Shown piece after piece: positions 20,469-54,067 of a DNA stretch of 64,000 bases (positions are counted from its first letter, which is position 1; each line of letters starts with the position of its first letter). Position numbers and translations under genes: made by a program. Under the pieces are notes generated by a model, which was not told where the DNA came from, did not search any database, and saw only the letters and a program-made list of their open reading frames with translations. Source of the stretch: the human T2T-CHM13v2.0 reference genome, Homo sapiens; NCBI RefSeq assembly GCF_009914755.1, contig NC_060935.1; one strand, given 5' to 3'.

Positions 20469-21329
20469 CCGTTAAAGAGAACAGAATTCCGTTGGCTGGG
20501 ATTCCACCTCATGGTCGTATCAAGACTTGTATCCTAAAGCTTCATCTCAGGCCTTTGGAGTCCCCTCCACTTTGCATTAAACAAAATGATGACACGAGTT
20601 TGAATCTCAATTCAAAAATATATGTTCTGCTTTTGAAGAAGAAGTGGATTTCAAAAAAATAAAACAAAACACCAACACAAAACAAAACAAAGCAAACAAT
20701 AACAACAAAAAGCCAGCGTTACTTTGAATTTTAACGCAACAGTGCCTGTATTAAAAAATAGTCTCGGTAACTTTCCAGTATTCCCAACGATCATTTTGCT
20801 GAGGGCTTTCAGAGGTTGGAGGGTGGGAGCAGGGAGAGGATCAGGAAAAATAACTAATGGGTACTAGGCTTAATACCTGGGTGATGAAATAGTCTGTACA
20901 GCACGTTCCAATGCCACAAGTTTATCTATATAAGAAACCTGCACTTGTACCCATGAACTTAAAATAAAAGTTAAAGAAAAAGGCCCGAAGACAGTCCAAT
21001 GGATAAGGGTCTAGGGAGAAAGTTCAAAAGTTCCTGATTAATAAACACTTTCATGTGCAAAAAAAAAAAATAGGATCTCTTCTCAGACGTCAGAAAAAAA
21101 TGCAGTATCTGCACATTTTTTCAACGGATAGGGAATTCATGGAGAAATGGTAATGGACCCAGATCTCCCTACCGAATCTAGTCTCCTAAATAAAACTAAG
21201 AAGTCTCCAAAAGTTAGACGTTTCTGGAAATAAATGATTCATCTGACAGATGTGAAAGTATCTAGAGTCAAGCCAATACTGATTCTCATAGGTAAAGCAT
21301 GTTAGTTCTTTTCGTTTTGCTTCATGTTT

Positions 21330-25690
<4,361 letters not shown>

Positions 25691-28940: not shown

Positions 28941-31387
28941 TAATTTTTAAAATGCCCAGAATATGTCAGCAAAAACACACTTTCTAAAGAAATATTCTAT
29001 AAGTAACTAGAACAATAAAATCCTACTCATTCCAAGAATAGTTACAAATAAAAGCTGGAAAAACAATTTATAAAAATAGCCTATAAAATAAAGAGATAAA
29101 AAGGAGGAAAATGCACCAGAAATAGGGCTTTACCTCTGTGAAATATATCACAGAGGAGCATTCTGACTAGTTGAAACAACTTGTGCAGGCTGGTGGATAG
29201 GAGAGGCCACTATTGAGAAATCCTTTAAAGGAACAACAATTTGAACAACAGGTGTTTCTTTAAAAATAAAGAAAATGGAACATTTGTGAAGTGATTTTTT
29301 AAAACTAAAATTCCACATGCAATTTTATTGTAGAAACTTACCACAAGCTTAGTTGTCTAAAACAATATGTTTATTATGTCACATTTCCTGTGGTTCGGAA
29401 GTCTGGGCGTGGCTTGACTAGGTCTTTTGAGAAGCTGAAATCTAGGTTTCAGCAAGGCTTGCAATCTCATCACAGCATAGATAGCTTTGTAATAACTAAT
29501 CTTCCAGTCAACAAACATAATGTATTTCTCCACTTTCTCTAAAAAGAGTCTGGCGCCTCTTCCCCCTTGCTTCCACTGTTCCCTTGTGATCTCTGTGCAT
29601 GCTAGCTCTTCTTCACTTTCCACAATGAGTGCAAGCAGCCTGAGACTCTCACCAGATGCAGATGCCTAATCTTGAACTTTCCAGTCCTTGGAAGCATGAG
29701 CCAAATACACCTTATTTCTTTATAAGTTGCCAAGCCTTAGGAATTCCTTGATAAAAACACAAAAGGGACTAAGACACTTAATATATCTATTGCTATTGAC
29801 AATATAATTATTTTAAGTCATGTAGTCCTACTTTTTTATTGTCATACAGTTATACAAGTGATTTTAATATTTCCTCCATATACATCCTCCTTGCTAAATT
29901 CTCATTTTATATCTAATTTTTTTCTATAAATACATTTAAATTTTCTACACAAAAAATTCATTATCTGCAACTAATGACAGTTTGGTTCTTCTCTAACAAT
30001 TTATATTTAATTATGAATTGTCTTACTTTACTACATAAAGGACCCAGAATAATCCTGAATAAATGTAGGAAGTGTGTATAATTGTTGTGTTGCTGACAAT
30101 AATGTAACACTTTTCAGGTTTTATCACTAATAATGTTATTCACTGTAGGTTTAAAATAATTTTCTTGTTAGCTTAGGAAGTTTTCCTTTATCCTTATTTT
30201 TAAGAGTTTGCTTTAAAACTATGAATACTTGCTTTTTCATTCCAAAGATTTGTTGTCATGCATCTATTGAGATTATTATACTATTAAACTTTAAACAATC
30301 TGCTTCTGTGGTAAATGTGGTATTTAAAAATTAGAATGTTAAAATATATTTGAATATCTGGAATGAGTTCATCTTGATCTTGATACATTGTCATATTTTT
30401 TCTTTTCATATATTATAAAATTTTATTTGAAAAATTACTTCTGGCCCCTTACACTTCATTCATAGTGAGATATGCATATTATTTCCCTGCCTGTATTGAA
30501 CTTTTATTGTTCTTTTTTGAAGGATCCAAGGACGAATCCACCTCTTTGCATTTTTCAGCTTCCAGAGGTTGATCACAGTTCTTGGTCCCTTCAAAGCCAG
30601 CAATGTTGAGTTAAGTCCTTCTCACAAGGAAGGAGAAGAACTCTTCTGCCATTGTCACATCACTCACTATGACTACAAGCAGAAAAGGTTTTCCACTGTT
30701 AAGAATCCATGTGATTATACTGGACATGGGAGTGCATCCAGGATAATCTCCATATTTTAAAGTCAGAGTCTACCAATCTTAATTCTGCAACCTTTGACAC
30801 CCATGTGCCATATAATGTATTCAAAGGTTCTGGGGATCAGGATGTGGACATCTTTGTGGGGCTATTATTCTAAATACCACATTATTCTTGTCTAAGGATA
30901 TTGTCAAGGAAGATGGAAAACAATAACAGGTTATACTCCAGCTGAGGATTCATTGGCAGTAGAAATATCCTGTAACTTCAGTCATAGGGGAAGAACATAT
31001 TAAAAAGTGGGACAAATAGAGTTGTTGGGATGAGAAACAACCAACATGGATTTCTTTTTCTCCTTTGAAATACTTGTTGTGACATGGAGTGATACAAAAA
31101 TAACCAAACCAAAATAACCCAAACCAACTAACAACTTATTTCTATTATGGGTCTCATAACTTTGAAATGATATTCTGTGTCCTGGTTCTTGGAGAAGTAG
31201 GAGAAAGGAATGGTACAGAATCAAAACAATAATCAGCATTATAAAATAAGATGTCTTTATTATACTATATTTTGTCATTACAGGATTCTTAATGTGTAAA
31301 CTCCCAAATAGTCAGCTATATATAGTCTCACAGTTGTACATGGTGATTACCCAATAGTGTGAGAATAGGACAAATGTTTTGGAAACC

Positions 31388-31486
31388 TCAAACCACTGGG
31401 ATCTGTGGAAATGCCACATCATCATAGATATGTTCAGGAGAGACTACAGATCGTTCGTTCTCGTTATTTGGTACAAAAAACACAAC
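31388..31486 (-). pseudogene. Relic MS4A paralogue, candidate terminal exon
   Basis: VVFFVPNNENERSVVSPEHIYDDVAFPQIPVV-TGA, starting like the MS4A tails VVLILP and SVLFLP; acceptor tttcttcacAG; AATAAA at 31261-31256. Confidence 0.65.
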
Positions 31487-31559
31487 CTGTGAAGAAATAG
31501 GAAAATTCTAATTTTCTTATTTCTAATTATCTTATAGTTAGATAAGTAGGAAACTTATC

Positions 31560-32350
31560 TAAGTATACCAACAGGTATATGGGAAAGTACTGAAATCACT
31601 AACCATCAGGTAAATGAAAATCAAAACCGCAGTAAAATATTATCTCACACCTGTCAGGCTGGCAACTATAGAACAAAGCAAGTGTTGGTGAGGTTGTAAA
31701 GAAGTTGGTACCTTTGCACACTGTTGGTGGAAATGTAAAATGGTGCTGCCGCTCTGGAAAGACATATAATTTTTTTCAAAAACTTAAATAACTCCCATAT
31801 GATCCAACAATCCCATTTCTGGGTATTAATCCCAAAACAGTAAAATCAGGATCCCCAAGAGATATTAGCACTCCTATGTTCATTTAATCACTATTCATGG
31901 TAGCCAAAATATGAAAATGTGGTATATGCCAACCTAATACATAAATAAATAATGCTTTTGCTTTTTTTCTTCCAATAATGAAGAAAGGCCTTTTTAAGGC
32001 TTTAGAAAGAAGGAAATTCTGCAATATACTGCAACATAAATGAACCTTGAGGCCATGATGCATACGATAAAAACCAGTCACAGAAAGACAAATATTGCGT
32101 GATTCCAATCATACGAGGTATCTAAAATAGTGTGACTCATAGAATCAGAGGCTGAAATGCTGGTTACCAGGATCTGAGGATAGCAAAAGTGGGGAGTTGC
32201 TAATCAACAGATATAAAGCTTCAGTCAAGCAAGATGAGTAAGCTCTGGAGATCCTGTGTACACTATTGTACCTATAGTCAACAATAATATCTTGTACACA
32301 AAAATGCTTTAGGTTGCTAATCTCATGTTAAATATTCTTACCACAGTAAG
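31560..32350 (+). mobile_element. L1MA/MB 3' fragment inside the relic MS4A gene
   Basis: Degenerate ORF2 end (atcaaaaccgcagt...tatctcacacctg) and 3'UTR. Confidence 0.8.
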
Positions 32351-33016
32351 ATATACTATAGATATAGATATACTATTATTACATATATATACACACGTAT
32401 ATATATAAATATATATATGTATATTTAAAAAGAGTGGCAGATTAGACAAAGTGTCTAAACTGATTTTGTTTGTTTGTTTTAGCCATCCCTACACCTCATA
32501 GTATTTTGTTTGTTTTGTTTTGCTTTTGTTTGGCTTAGAAGTATCTTTTAGTCTTTAAAACCAGTTGCTTCTTATTTCACAACAGCCTGCATTTAACTCC
32601 CTGAACTTCTCACTCACTGTGGATGCCATTGAGGAAAATGAATGTATATGACCCAGTCATCTTAGCTTGTTGCTCAGAATCCTTGGAAATTATGGTGTAG
32701 CTACAGCTGTCAGTTTTCTGTTTTCTCTTCAGCTAGTGTTTCAAATCAAGAGGGAAGTGCTCCCTGGACTCTGAGTCCTTACAACATTTTCCATTGTCCA
32801 AGCACACAACATCAGAGTGGTCAGAGAGAAGAGGTTATTTTTTTTTCGGTACGTTATTCCTGGCATGGTTCAAAAGCCCAAATCCTGTAAATTTCAAGAG
32901 ATAGTCCAATATGTATAAGTCCAATGACTCCAGTTAGCTCCATGGTGAGAATTCACAAGGAAACCTCCTGAATATAAAACCTATTTATATTATTGTATTA
33001 GTGCAACAGTACTTAC

Positions 33017-33151
33017 TACAGAAAAAAATGTGCTATAAGTAGAGATACAAATTCTTCTTAAAAAGATATATATTACTTCCACAGCCATCAGAACTGTGCC
33101 TGTTCCTGCTGTGGTGGCACTGACTGTATTCATCCCCAGGCTGCCTTGGAT
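33017..33151 (-). pseudogene. Relic MS4A paralogue, TM3 exon, 135 nt
   Basis: IQGSLGMNTVSATTAGTGTVLMAVEVIYIFLRRICISTYSTFFSV with the GSLGMNxxS signature; acceptor ctttttctctccttttcAG, donor GTAAGT. Confidence 0.88.
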
Positions 33152-33560
33152 CTGAAAAGGAGAGAAAAAGATTTTTGGAAATATACAGTCTCGTGTTCTT
33201 TCTGTCTCTGAGAGTCCACAAAATGACATTTAACTCAGTTGATTTGAATTTGGATATCAACTTGGACAGTGCTCCCACTCTGGAAAAAAAAATGTTGGGG
33301 GGGAGGAAGCATCTGGTATAGAGGAAGCCTTGATTACATCAGGCTCCAATGCAGGGATTGTATTGCACATGGAATGTCATAGCACAGAGCTAAGTCTATC
33401 ATTCTTGCCTAAGTGTCACAGGGGAAAAATTTATTAGGATTACATGAGAACATTTCTAGGGAGCCTCTTTAGAGAACCAGCCAGGTTTGATGTGTCTTAT
33501 CCTTGCAGCTCAGGAAATGTCTCTTGCTAGAACTCTCAGGCTTAACCAAAAGACACTTAC

Positions 33561-33795
33561 CAGACCCTTGGTCGCTTTCCTTCCAGCAGCAAAGCCCCTG
33601 TTACAGACTTGTCCACTGACTCTCAAAGACATTAGCTTTCATATCCAGCATTCAGCAGTTCTTCCTAAATGAGGATACAAACCCAGTGTTGATGATGGTT
33701 ATGCTTCTGTGTACTAATTATTCAATTCATTTATACCTCTATTGTTTTTCCTGGCTGATTTGCTGCTATTTCCACAGTGCTCCAGACGGAAAGAA
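33561..33795 (-). pseudogene. Relic MS4A paralogue, 57-nt TM2b exon interrupted by a 178-bp insertion (33596-33773)
   Basis: Removing the insert gives exactly 57 nt, FFPSGALCFAAGRKATKGL, compare FIISGSLSIAAGIRTTKGL of MS4A4A; acceptor tttaatcAG, donor GTAAGT. Confidence 0.88.
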
Positions 33796-34006
33796 CTGAT
33801 TAAAGAGAATCAACTCAGAGCTTCCATCGGCACTCCCTTTCCTAAAATAATCTCCTACCTTCTCCCACTCTTTTGTCAATATTATTTACCCAAACAATTG
33901 TCCAAGTTTGGTATTTAAAATTAATGCATAGATTTTCAAGAGAAAATGATGAAGTCATTTGCAGATACCTGAAATTAGAAGTAGTAGAACAATGACTAGT
34001 ACTCAC

Positions 34007-34138
34007 TGAGAAGGATCCCCATAAATGATAGTTCATATTAATTATATGGAGAACTCCAACTGCATAAACAGTTGAAACAAAAAGCGCCATTGTGAGACGC
34101 AGGCATCGTGTCATCAGCCCAATCAGGATCTGAGCCTC
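34007..34138 (-). pseudogene. Relic MS4A paralogue, TM1/TM2a exon, 132 nt
   Basis: EAQILIGLMTRCLRLTMALFVSTVYAVGVLHIINMNYHLWGSFS, compare QILxGxM...YPFWG; acceptor tttactctccAG, donor GTGAGT, phase 0. Confidence 0.88.
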
Positions 34139-34339
34139 CTGGAGAGTAAAAAACATCCTGTGAGGAGGTGCATCTTCTCAGGGTGAAGGCCTTTCTAACA
34201 TCATTGCACATTAATTCCTTCCCCACCTCCGAGACTCCAAACTTGAGATATCTTGCAGGAAGATAAAAATGTATGCATTGTCTGTTCTCTTGTCCAACAC
34301 AGGATACTGCAATTAATCTTACTATTATTTATTTATATA

Positions 34340-34391
34340 TTTGCCATTACTTTTAATGGCAAAAACCGCAGTGACTTTTGCACCAACCTAA
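34340..34391. mobile_element. MADE1 (Hsmar1 MITE), partial
   Basis: gccattacttttaatggcaaaaaccgc...ttttgcaccaacctaa. Confidence 0.85.
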
Positions 34392-34625
34392 TACATAAGT
34401 AATGATAACATTTTTGTGTTTTTTTTCCTTCCAATAATGAACAGCTTTATTCAGTCCCTTTTCATTTTGTCAATTTGTAAGGTTTGTTTAGTTCAGAAAG
34501 GTTCAGATAGTTTTCTACCATACTCAGTGACCTGGAAAATGTGGATATCTTGAGGAAATCTCAGTCCTGTCTCAGGAAATGATGCTTTTCCCCTAAGCCT
34601 GTGCTCTGGTCTCGTGTTCACTCAC

Positions 34626-34788
34626 CCCTAGGACCTGGGGCTGCCTTTTCAGAAAAAGCCTCAAATCCTTCAGTTGCTGTTAGGGCAAGATCCAAGCCCC
34701 CGACTGGCTTGGTAGTAAGATGGTCTCTTTCCAAAGAAAGTTTATGATCCTTCCCTTGACTGCATCTGCCTCTGATGTCCAGGTATTG
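34626..34788 (-). pseudogene. Relic MS4A paralogue, N-terminal exon (in-frame stop, no ATG)
   Basis: ...WILP*QQLKDLRLFLKRQPQVLG|GTGAGT matches the MS4A FLKxxPKVLG exon end; TAA at 34682-34680; acceptor ccaacAG tentative. Confidence 0.8.
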
Positions 34789-36896
34789 CTGTTGGCACCA
34801 GGAGAGAAAACGCTTAGTGGAGAGCCACTTCTAAATATTTTCCTTGATCAATATCAAAATGTAGTGGCAAGAGATTTTGTGTCTCTGGAAAATAATATCA
34901 TAATAATATAATGATATTTGATTGAAATAATCAAATAATATTCATAATATTTTATTTCCACAACTTTGATTAGGGCAGAGCTGGATTTTTTACTTACATC
35001 CTCATTCTCGTATTGACCCAGGCAGTCAGCTAGGACAAATCTGCACTGAACTATAGCTGCCTAATCCTCGGCAAGGGAACACAGTGTTACTGACCTTATG
35101 CAAAGTATCTAAGCCTTGATGAACGAAATTTGGACATTTACCTTCCTGCTCAGATTCCAGAAAGAAAGAGAACTGACTATTTGCAGCAAAATTTCAGGCA
35201 ATATTTTTCCATACCCAAGTTTCCTGTAGCTCAGTTTACAGTGACCCCCACAGGCCTGGCGTTCACATCATCTCCACTTAGACTCCTTGTAAGATCAAAC
35301 ATGGGACTACTATAAGGCACGGTCTCTTCCTACCTTTGCATCTCTTCAGGGCACACCAATGGAAGTTATTGTCCTTTCTGGTGTGTGGACTCTAATTCAC
35401 AGTCCTCAAAGAGGATGAATACCTGTCTGATGTGTAATTTGTGATGAAACTTTGTCTTAGACCCATGGGCCACTAGTTTCCTGTGATTTATCTCACTCTC
35501 CTTGCCAGATAGGTATCTGCAATGTTTTTAAGTTTTGTAATATATCCCTGATATAATAATCTAACTTCACTTCTCACATGCTAACACAGTATCAATGTAA
35601 GAGCACATTGTCAATGCTAGCTCCCCTCCATTGCCGTGTCTCCTGAATAGTATGCATGTCTCGCTTGCCAGATTCACTGTTAATAGGACTCATGTTTCTC
35701 TGGCTTCATGTAATAAAAACTAACTATAAATTATGAGTGCTTCTGAATTAGGGATCTTCTTAAAAACATGATTTTATTTAATAATATTGTATTTTATAAA
35801 ATCCTTATTGTGTATCTTATCACATAACAGTTGTAATTATTTAATATACTTTCCCGACTATTACTTCTGTTTTTTTGAAAAACTCTCCTCCCGGTTCATG
35901 TGATTTCATTAGACTTGTAACCCCAGGTATGACAAAGTCTTTTCTTATGCCACAGTAACTGGACTGCTCTATTTTCTCATCCTTGTAAAATGGTAACTCC
36001 TTAGTGAATGCTTCAGAAGTTTCCAAAAATTCAAGAAAAATACCATATTGTTGGCAAATGTTAATTTATTGTGTATCATATTTAAGGCAGTAGGAAAAAT
36101 GTTTCATAGAACCAAAAGATTGACATCATGTAAACAAACAAACAAAAATCAGTTTGCTACTAACACTTTCCCAATCCACTCTCTCATCTTGGTATTTTTT
36201 TCTTTTTCTTTTTCTTTTTTTTTTGCCAAGGACTTCTTAAAATCTTTTCAGGATTTTTCTTATAAAATATTTTGTAATATTTGAAACAAAACAATAAGCC
36301 TAATAACATCCTGACATCCATTAACATTTAAACAATTCAACTTGGACTCTAAATTCCCTCTACAAATCATGTTAATTCTATGATTCCTCCACAAGAATTT
36401 ACATAGGTGAATATCTATACACATATGTATGTTTACATATATATGCACATATCTATATACATATATATGTGTCTTTTAACTTACTGATTTTTTTCTCCAT
36501 TGTAAGCACTTATTTGGATGTTCAAGACACATGATAATAGAAACATTTACTTCCAAGTTTAATTTTGTAAGGCAAAATTCTCATTTTGTTTCTGGACAAA
36601 AATATCTTTTGGGCCTTTATATCAGCCTCCTCATATATTTTCTCATTCCAGGGGAGAAACTGGTTTTCATCTGGTTCTGTCGATCAACCAGAAAACTCTT
36701 GGATATCCCATTTCAGAGTCAAAGATATTAACATAATGTTCATTACACTATTGTGTGTGTAATTGGTTAAATTACAGCATAATTTTCTCTTTCTTTGCAA
36801 CAGAATTGTGTTTTTGCCATGGAAAACATGTTCCCAATTAAGTGTGGTGACTGGAGGCCACTCATTGGTAAATTACAGATGTCACTTTATACCTGG

Positions 36897-36933
<37 letters not shown>

Positions 36934-37010
36934 AGCATGCATGTGTATATATACATATATATGTGTATCTTTATATGTGTGTGTGTGTGTGTATATATAT
37001 ATGTATATAT
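36897..37010. repeat. Compound (TA)n/(TG)n microsatellite
   Basis: Directly visible. Confidence 0.95.
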
Positions 37011-37658
37011 CTCCCAGATATCACTAGATAGGCTTTTACCAAAAACAAAACAAAACAACTGCAGGATGTCATTTTACAGCACTTTCAACTATCTCCATGG
37101 ATACAATATGATGTTGTTTCTCTGTCCAGTCCCAGCTAGATGCAACACAAGGAAAACTAGTTATCCATGGCACATGGACCAGACCATTAAAGAACAATGG
37201 TAAAGACACCACTTTCCACAATACCCTTCCGTGAGTTAGTCTCACTGTCGCTTTTGCATAGATGCATGTCCCTGTTACAGACTTGTCCACTGACTCTCAA
37301 AGACATTAGCTTTCATATCCAGCATTCAGCAGTTCTTCCGAAATGAGGATACAAGGCAAGTGTTGATGATGGTTATGCTCTAGTGTCCTAATTATTCCCT
37401 TCATTTACACCTCTATTGTTTTTCCTGGCTGACTTGCTGCTATTTCCACTTCCCTGGAGTAGTGCTAGCTCTACACCTATTTAGGTTAGCAAGTCCTGTT
37501 CACTCTTATAAGGTGTCTTTGGGGATAGATTTGTTAGGGTGTAACTCAGCACAGTAACCCCACAGAGGGTTCTAATTTCCCCTCAGATATGTGGTCTTGT
37601 GGTATTTCTATAATGTGTTATATTTCTAGATTTTTATGTGTATTTCCAGAAAAAAAAA

Positions 37659-38812
<1,154 letters not shown>

Positions 38813-40828: not shown

Positions 40829-42849
<2,021 letters not shown>

Positions 42850-43189
42850 ATAATAAATAACTTTTGAAAAATGCATAGTTTCCCCTCACTGATGACATGT
42901 GGAGACACTGTAAAGGACAAAGGTAGCAAGTGTGATTTCCTGTGGTCAAGTTAGATACCTCCAGTGAATTCCAGATACCTTGTTTTGCCTTTTTCTATTT
43001 CTCTTGGGAGAAAAGTTGTTCCTCGTTATCACCATAAGGTGTCAGTAGAGTCAACTGTGCAGAAATTGGGAAAGGCCAATAATTCTAAAATCTTTCTCCT
43101 GCAAAGGGAAGAGAAAACATGTTTCCTACACAGTCTGAGTCATCCTATTTAGAGCATTCTACAACTTTCTTTCTCTCTTTTTTTTCCTC

Positions 43190-53774: not shown

Positions 53775-54067
53775 TTTATTTTTAGCTTTTATTTTAAGTT
53801 CAAGGGTACAACTGCATGTCTGTTACATAGATAAACTTGTGTCATGGGGGTTTGCTGTACAGATTATTTCATCACCCAGGTATTAAGCCTAGTATCCATT
53901 AGTTATTTTTCCTGATCCTCTCTCTCCTCCCACCCTCCACCCTCTGAAAGGCCTCAGTGTGCATTGTTCTGTTCTACGTGTCCATGTGTTCTCATCATTT
54001 AGAGGCCATCCCCCTTAGCAGACTAACACAGGGACAGAAACCAAATACTGCATGTTCTCATGTATAA
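53775..54067 (-). mobile_element. Short L1PA 3' fragment with 5' inversion
   Basis: Antisense 3'UTR to about 54001, then a sense ORF2-end segment; ctgaagctctg on both sides. Confidence 0.7.

What the first reader, a model, noticed from the sequence alone, without database searches (positions are those of the whole stretch)
33561..33795. Exon disabled by a 178-bp templated copy of DNA from 3.7 kb away
Seen in sequence: 33596-33773 matches 37270-37447 gap-free and in the same orientation, with 12 mismatches by my count (about 93%). It has no polyA and no TSD, and 2 nt of junction homology (ac) at one end. Excising it joins 22 nt + 35 nt into exactly the canonical 57-nt MS4A exon, in frame, which shows the 33.6-kb copy is the derived one. 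178 is not a multiple of 3, so the insert frameshifts. Inference: a template-switch or break-repair insertion. About 7% divergence is similar to human-Old World monkey neutral divergence and gives a rough date for one disabling lesion.
Basis: partly seen in the sequence, partly recalled or inferred. Interest (0 to 1): 0.75.

Follow-up and report, generated by a model that had tools for sequence, protein, structure and literature searches.

The report
Repair copy inside dead MS4A gene
A 178-base piece of nearby DNA sits copied inside one exon of a broken human membrane-protein gene (MS4A family) whose likely counterpart is intact in cats, bears and a sloth; it likely arose as an ordinary DNA-repair accident, and as one of three breaks it may not be what killed the gene.

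Summary
33596-33773 matches 37270-37447 gap-free with 12 mismatches, and only these two copies were found in the genome. Removing the insert restores a 57-nt exon that matches cat 'MS4A4A-like' protein at 15 of 19 residues. So the 33.6-kb copy is the derived one. It fits a published class, repair-mediated duplications (mean 162 bp, donor under 5 kb away; PMC2671141).

The host, annotated as LINC02705, is a transcribed unitary MS4A pseudogene whose orthologue is intact in Carnivora and sloth.

- The start codon is not lost.
- There are three lesions: a TAA in exon 2, this insert, and a missing TM4 exon.
- The insert stops the frame at codon 10, before any frameshift matters. The annotated RNA instead enters through a new acceptor inside it.
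- 6.7% divergence spans great-ape to anthropoid ages.
- A rough model gives 0.29-0.54 that the insert came first.

The mechanism is ordinary. The unrecognised lost MS4A gene is the modest gain.

The parts
33596..33773 (+). Inserted (acceptor) copy, 178 nt net; identity to donor extends to 33775
37270..37449 (+). Donor copy, non-coding, about 1.9 kb upstream of the pseudogene's ATG and inside the predicted first exon of LINC02705
   Evidence: annotation in the finding
33774..33795 (-). 5' part (22 nt) of ancestral 57-nt exon 4, with intact acceptor
33561..33595 (-). 3' part (35 nt) of ancestral exon 4, with intact donor
33665..33666 (-). New AG acceptor inside the insert; the donor copy has CG here. 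It begins the annotated LINC02705 exon 33561-33664
   Evidence: annotation in the finding
33766..33768 (-). In-frame TAG at codon 10 if the whole 235-nt exon were included
33630..33634 (-). Overlapping stop and start (TAATG): ends the exon-3 frame and opens a 77-codon frame that re-enters the MS4A frame (stored protein P0002)
35334..35341 (-). Coding part of exon 1 with intact ATG and GT donor (phase 2)
34626..34788 (-). Exon 2, 163 nt, with premature TAA at 34682-34680
34007..34138 (-). Exon 3, 132 nt, open (19 of 44 residues identical to tiger)
33017..33151 (-). Exon 5, 135 nt, open; weak Pfam CD20 match
31487..33016 (-). Intron in which the TM4 exon (exon 6, 33 codons in orthologues) is expected but not found; holds an old L1-like stretch
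31388..31486 (-). Last coding exon, open, with terminal TGA

Best explanation
A 178-nt copy of DNA from 3.5 kb away interrupts exon 4 of a broken MS4A gene, and it was most likely written in during repair of a germline DNA break, when one broken end likely borrowed the nearby stretch as template and then rejoined. Shown: the duplication, its polarity, the gene's exon structure, three lesions, and an AG in the copy that the donor lacks. Inferred: synthesis-dependent strand annealing or similar template switching, an age between the great-ape and anthropoid ancestors (catarrhine most likely), and a later point change creating the acceptor. With that acceptor the surviving transcript (LINC02705) splices through the insert and stops 10 codons later. 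The gene is likely a unitary pseudogene, and the insert is one of three lesions of unknown order.
For: Size (178 nt), spacing (3496 nt), single second copy and absence of polyA match the published proximal class. The rejoined exon matches tiger at 15 of 19 residues. 12 of 24 orthologue models with a locatable exon 5 carry the full uninterrupted 19 residues. The tiger protein's best hit in the human genome is this locus. The tree groups it with carnivores (95/90) apart from MS4A4A, MS4A2, MS4A3 and MS4A6A. Frameshift-aware alignment to meerkat and panda needs no shifts or gaps over exons 1-5. 5 of the 6 splice sites of the annotated lncRNA model are ancestral MS4A sites (against the annotation). 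An unnamed stored protein spans insert, exon 4 remnant and exon 5, which implies a spliced RNA.
Against: The only junction mark is 2 nt of homology, about a 1-in-6 chance by my arithmetic (no call); in the published sample 'microhomology only' was 2 of 39. No outgroup DNA could be read, so the empty site is shown only at protein level and only outside primates. The mismatch pattern is uneven (0 in the first 70 nt, 12 in the rest; 7 of 12 transversions), which a single copy plus neutral drift explains only moderately well. The tree used 89 columns with long paralogue branches, and synteny of the carnivore genes was not checked.
Confidence: 0.82

Rival explanations
1. On order of events: the insertion was the first lesion and killed a working gene.
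For: The remaining 594 coding nt carry only one point or small-indel disablement; ATG, terminal stop and all 10 remaining splice dinucleotides are intact. So gene death is not much older than the insert: model median 0.016-0.024 substitutions per site from disablements alone, against about 0.03 for the insert.
Against: The same model gives only 0.29-0.54 that the insert is oldest of three (rates assumed). No named primate protein appeared in three searches that included human exon words, which hints at loss across simians, possibly before the insert. Exon 4 is skippable in frame (8 of 24 models).
Confidence: 0.35
2. On the clock: part of the divergence was made at copying by error-prone synthesis, or part was erased later by gene conversion, so 6.7% misdates the event.
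For: All 12 mismatches lie in 33666-33759. A clean end run of 70 nt has P=0.004 if the mismatches are independent. 5 neighbouring pairs lie within 2 nt (P=0.005), and 7 of 12 are transversions (P=0.054). Error-prone synthesis at structural-variant breakpoints is reported (PMC4937565, abstract only).
Against: Counting clusters as 7-8 events raises the end-run P to 0.035-0.059, and any-gap P to 0.16-0.23. No local template for the clustered changes stood out. Published divergences broadly track species ages.
Confidence: 0.25
3. On mechanism: the template was the gene's own nascent RNA or a cDNA of it, not DNA.
For: The donor is in the same orientation and lies inside the predicted first exon of LINC02705 (annotation).
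Against: No polyA, no TSD, no splice junction inside the insert, and its ends are not exon ends. The donor is 1.9 kb upstream of the ATG exon and may not have been transcribed ancestrally.
Confidence: 0.07
4. Both copies are independent insertions of a repeat.
For: The genome search skips very common words and is a lower bound. A 6-nt direct repeat flanks the donor.
Against: Only 2 matches in the genome. Neither copy is among the listed masked stretches (only the longest are listed). The 6-nt repeat occurs in 8% of random placements.
Confidence: 0.02

Closest known systems
Repair-mediated duplications (Pace, Sen, Batzer, Feschotte 2009, PMC2671141)
   Same: Insertion of 50 nt or more copied from a single donor within 5 kb (824 human cases, mean 162 bp, maximum 619 bp), no polyA, short microhomology.
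   Different: The acceptor site is a coding exon rather than a transposon, so their pipeline could not list it. It is not among the 47 chr11 rows of their proximal sheet. No filler, and no deletion evident at codon level.
'MS4A4A-like' proteins of Carnivora, Choloepus and Vicugna (NCBI/UniRef names)
   Same: Same exon sizes and phases; 50-54% identity to seven carnivores and 45% to sloth over the retained exons.
   Different: The human copy has a TAA, the insert and no TM4 exon. Despite the database name they are not MS4A4A orthologues in the tree.
LINC02705 (RefSeq lncRNA model XR_007082148.1)
   Same: Same strand and span; 5 of its 6 splice sites are the MS4A sites.
   Different: The supplied annotation does not call it a pseudogene; coding homology extends past its 3' end to 31388.
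Exonisation through a newly created 3' splice site (general knowledge, best known for Alu; recalled)
   Same: One base difference supplies the AG that lets inserted DNA enter an exon.
   Different: The inserted DNA is unique sequence and lies inside an old exon whose own acceptor is bypassed.

Membership tests
Repair-mediated duplication (PMC2671141) | Inserted segment of 50 to about 620 nt | tested here: met
   178 nt
Repair-mediated duplication (PMC2671141) | Donor on the same chromosome within 5 kb | tested here: met
   3496 nt between the copies
Repair-mediated duplication (PMC2671141) | Only one other copy in the genome | tested here: met
   the tool gives lower bounds
Repair-mediated duplication (PMC2671141) | No polyA/T tail | tested here: met
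Repair-mediated duplication (PMC2671141) | Microhomology, filler or deletion at the breakpoints | tested here: inconclusive
   2-nt homology only, inside their 2-9 nt range but at chance level
Repair-mediated duplication (PMC2671141) | Empty orthologous site in outgroup DNA | not testable with these tools
   Only proteins were available; they show the uninterrupted exon in 12 of 24 models
Retroposed copy / L1 transduction | PolyA tail and target-site duplication | tested here: not met
Segmental duplication | Longer than 1 kb | tested here: not met
   180-nt match only
MS4A gene (host) | CD20-like domain PF04103 above the curated cut-off | tested here: inconclusive
   Exon 5 alone scored 20.2 bits, E 7e-4, cut-off 27.9; exon 3 gave no match. 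Most named orthologues carry PF04103
MS4A gene (host) | Family exon plan with a 57-nt phase-0 exon | tested here: met
MS4A gene (host) | Four transmembrane segments encoded | tested here: not met
   TM4 exon not found: best score 25 against 24-34 for 15 shuffles, controls 89 and 64. A pseudogene remnant, not a working member
Unitary pseudogene | Disabled, with intact orthologues elsewhere and no closer working copy in the same genome | tested here: met
   synteny not checked
Unitary pseudogene | Lesions fixed in the human population | not testable with these tools
   One human assembly only

The most novel reading that the evidence does not exclude
The repair copy killed a working MS4A gene in a catarrhine ancestor and was then co-opted. 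A new acceptor, and a start codon overlapping the stop, re-enter the old MS4A frame. So LINC02705, at the MS4A Alzheimer's locus, makes a 77-residue truncated MS4A membrane microprotein, and the mismatch-free 70 nt reflect selection on the exonised part.
Probability: 0.03. Interest if true: 0.7.

Novelty: new member of a known kind. Interest (0 to 1): 0.3.

Why it matters
The mechanism is known and common (824 human cases in transposons alone). This case is useful because the old exon supplies the empty site, showing such a copy landing in coding DNA and later feeding a new splice site. The larger gain is annotation: LINC02705, listed as an Alzheimer's risk gene in one review table, looks like the transcribed remnant of a distinct MS4A gene that carnivores and sloth keep. 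That adds a datable gene loss to the MS4A cluster and changes how the lncRNA should be read.

Tried and rejected
- Donor as an upstream coding exon: the clouded-leopard N-terminal extension maps to 35578-35333, not to the donor.
- TM4 exon: searched by acceptor scan, tblastn and frameshift-aware alignment with one and then six orthologue peptides (scores 25-33). Not found.
- Junction oddities, tested against 3000 random placements: a 6-nt direct repeat around the donor (P=0.08); an 8-nt inverted match between the empty site and the donor end (P=0.009, or 0.06 for either orientation, noticed post hoc and predicting an inverted copy, which is not seen); a 6-nt direct match 11 nt beyond the donor end (not scored on its own). 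None is taken as evidence.
- Local templates for the clustered mismatches: longest matches 7-10 nt, similar for copy and donor.
- Rfam: 0 matches in 31000-38000.
- Exon 3 alone found 0 of 24 candidates. Exon 5 against the representative library gave 4 proteins, 2 identical to this locus and 2 distant.
- Literature: no description of this insert or pseudogene surfaced in searches for LINC02705 (3 papers), MS4A with pseudogene terms, 'MS4A4A-like' (0 papers), MS4A gene loss or 'repair-mediated duplication'. Most hits were seen only as listings, and subscription papers and gene-loss catalogues such as TOGA or Ensembl were not searchable.
- No Atlas look-alikes and no earlier scan notes were available, so neither bears on novelty.

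Full report
Observation. 33596-33773 and 37270-37447 align without gaps at offset 3674 with 12 mismatches; identity runs 2 nt further, to 33775/37449. A genome search found these two places only, and the donor's flanks add no further copy; both searches are lower bounds. There is no polyA or TSD. Removing 178 nt leaves a 57-nt open exon with AG and GT ends on the minus strand. Three registers give 57 nt.

The host gene. The rejoined exon is 58% identical to the 57-nt exon at the MS4A4A locus (locus names follow the supplied annotation spans). Protein searches gave closer relatives. Of 35 hits, 27 were named (25 Carnivora, one sloth, one alpaca; most called 'MS4A4A-like') and 8 unnamed; only the 7997 best-sharing candidates were scored and the profile was cat-heavy. 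Against tiger the human exons match at 27 of 56, 19 of 44, 15 of 19 and 20 of 44 residues. The tiger protein's best human hit is this locus, E 2.6e-5. A tree of 13 rows and 89 columns groups it with the 7 carnivore rows (95/90), with sloth and four human paralogues outside; 19 of the 27 named proteins were left out as isoforms, partial models or near-duplicates. Of 27 named proteins, 24 had a locatable exon 5: 12 carry the full uninterrupted 19 residues, 4 Canis models carry a version 5 residues shorter, and 8 lack the exon. This settles polarity at protein level and shows the exon can be skipped in frame.

Lesions. The coding exons are 35341-35334, 34788-34626, 34138-34007, the split exon 33795-33561, 33151-33017 and 31486-31388. 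All 10 remaining splice dinucleotides are intact, and alignment to meerkat and panda needs no frameshift; sloth needed several gap or shift steps in the divergent N-terminus. Three lesions remain: TAA at 34682-34680, the insert, and absence of the 33-codon TM4 exon (score 25 against 24-34 for shuffles, controls 89 and 64).

What the insert does. Included whole, the 235-nt exon stops at codon 10. The RefSeq model instead splices from exon 3 into 33664, using an AG whose A is one of the 12 differences; the donor has CG. That path stops after 10 codons, 71 nt before the last junction, a likely decay substrate by the recalled 50-55 nt rule. The stop overlaps an ATG that opens 77 codons and re-enters the MS4A frame. 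An unnamed stored protein has exactly this sequence across the exon 4-5 junction, which implies a spliced RNA but not translation. The start context is weak and 73 ATGs lie upstream in the model, so I take it as incidental.

Mechanism. PMC2671141 (parts 1-5 of 8 of the text read) describes 824 human insertions with donors under 5 kb away, mean 162 bp, without polyA, attributed to synthesis-dependent strand annealing. This case meets the size, distance, copy-number and no-tail criteria. Its breakpoint mark is weak: 2 nt, and 'microhomology only' was 2 of 39 in that paper. The pathway is therefore inferred from class membership, not shown. The event is absent from the 47 chr11 acceptor rows of their proximal sheet (120 of 123 'chr11' places seen), as expected for a pipeline confined to transposons.

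Date and order. 12 of 180 is 6.7%, 95% interval 3.5-11.4%. By my count of those 47 rows, the 12 at 5.5-8.0% divergence were 3 great-ape, 5 catarrhine and 4 all-primate events, so the prediction of an empty site in New World monkeys has roughly 2-in-3 odds. The mismatches are also uneven: none in the 70 nt that became exon, 5 close pairs, 7 transversions. The one-sidedness is P=0.004 for independent changes but 0.035-0.059 when clusters count once, so error-prone copying or gene conversion is possible, not shown. A disablement clock with assumed rates puts gene death near 0.02 substitutions per site (upper bounds 0.054-0.079) and gives 0.29-0.54 that the insert is the oldest lesion. Against that, no named primate protein was found, although human exon words were in the queries. 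This hints at older or repeated loss, or at annotation gaps.

What is in print. PMC2826416 (abstract and passages) lists 16 human MS4A genes and never uses the word pseudogene in its main text. PMC4016189 (passages) adds nothing on this locus. PMC11736697 (one passage) lists LINC02705 among late-onset Alzheimer's genes. PMC11837265, PMC7749173 and PMC9498881 (passages) mention AP001257.1; that this is LINC02705 is recalled and not confirmed by any search. PMC4937565 was seen as abstract and opening text only. Searches surfaced no account of this insert or pseudogene. Gene-loss catalogues and their supplements were not seen and may list it.

Verdict. A real, ordinary repair-mediated duplication in a probably unrecognised unitary MS4A pseudogene: a new member of a known kind, interest 0.3.

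Noticed in passing
window 31388-35341 (-): LINC02705 overlies a near-complete MS4A gene whose orthologue is intact in Carnivora and sloth; the databases' name 'MS4A4A-like' hides a separate orthologous group.
   Followed up: yes
window 31388-31486 (-): The last exon keeps a tyrosine-acidic motif shared with all orthologues that reach it, and runs 5-6 residues past their C-termini; possibly a lost ancestral stop.
   Followed up: no
window 35333-35578 (-): Sequence upstream of the ATG still aligns in frame to the clouded-leopard model's N-terminal extension (35% identity, E 5e-4, three stops), marking conserved 5' exon or promoter DNA.
   Followed up: partly
window 21706-21808 and 22652-22754: Inverted pair of 103 nt, 87% complementary, 843 nt apart; could be another proximal duplication or the arms of an old element.
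   Followed up: no
window 20799-20981 and 53775-53957: Inverted pair of 183 nt at 89%, 32.8 kb apart, with a weaker related match near 38636-38809; probably a repeat family.
   Followed up: no
window 41186-41211 and 42246-42271: 26-nt inverted match at 96%, about 1 kb apart, one arm inside the annotated enhancer 41696-42895.
   Followed up: no
window 37440-37455 (-): The donor's end carries a GGAAG core resembling an ETS/PU.1 site (motif recalled); the copy starts inside it and does not keep the whole motif.
   Followed up: no
L010:5754-5810 (MS4A4E locus): The 57-nt exon there reads Val where MS4A4A has the Gly conserved across the family, and it did not pass my splice-pattern scan.
   Followed up: no
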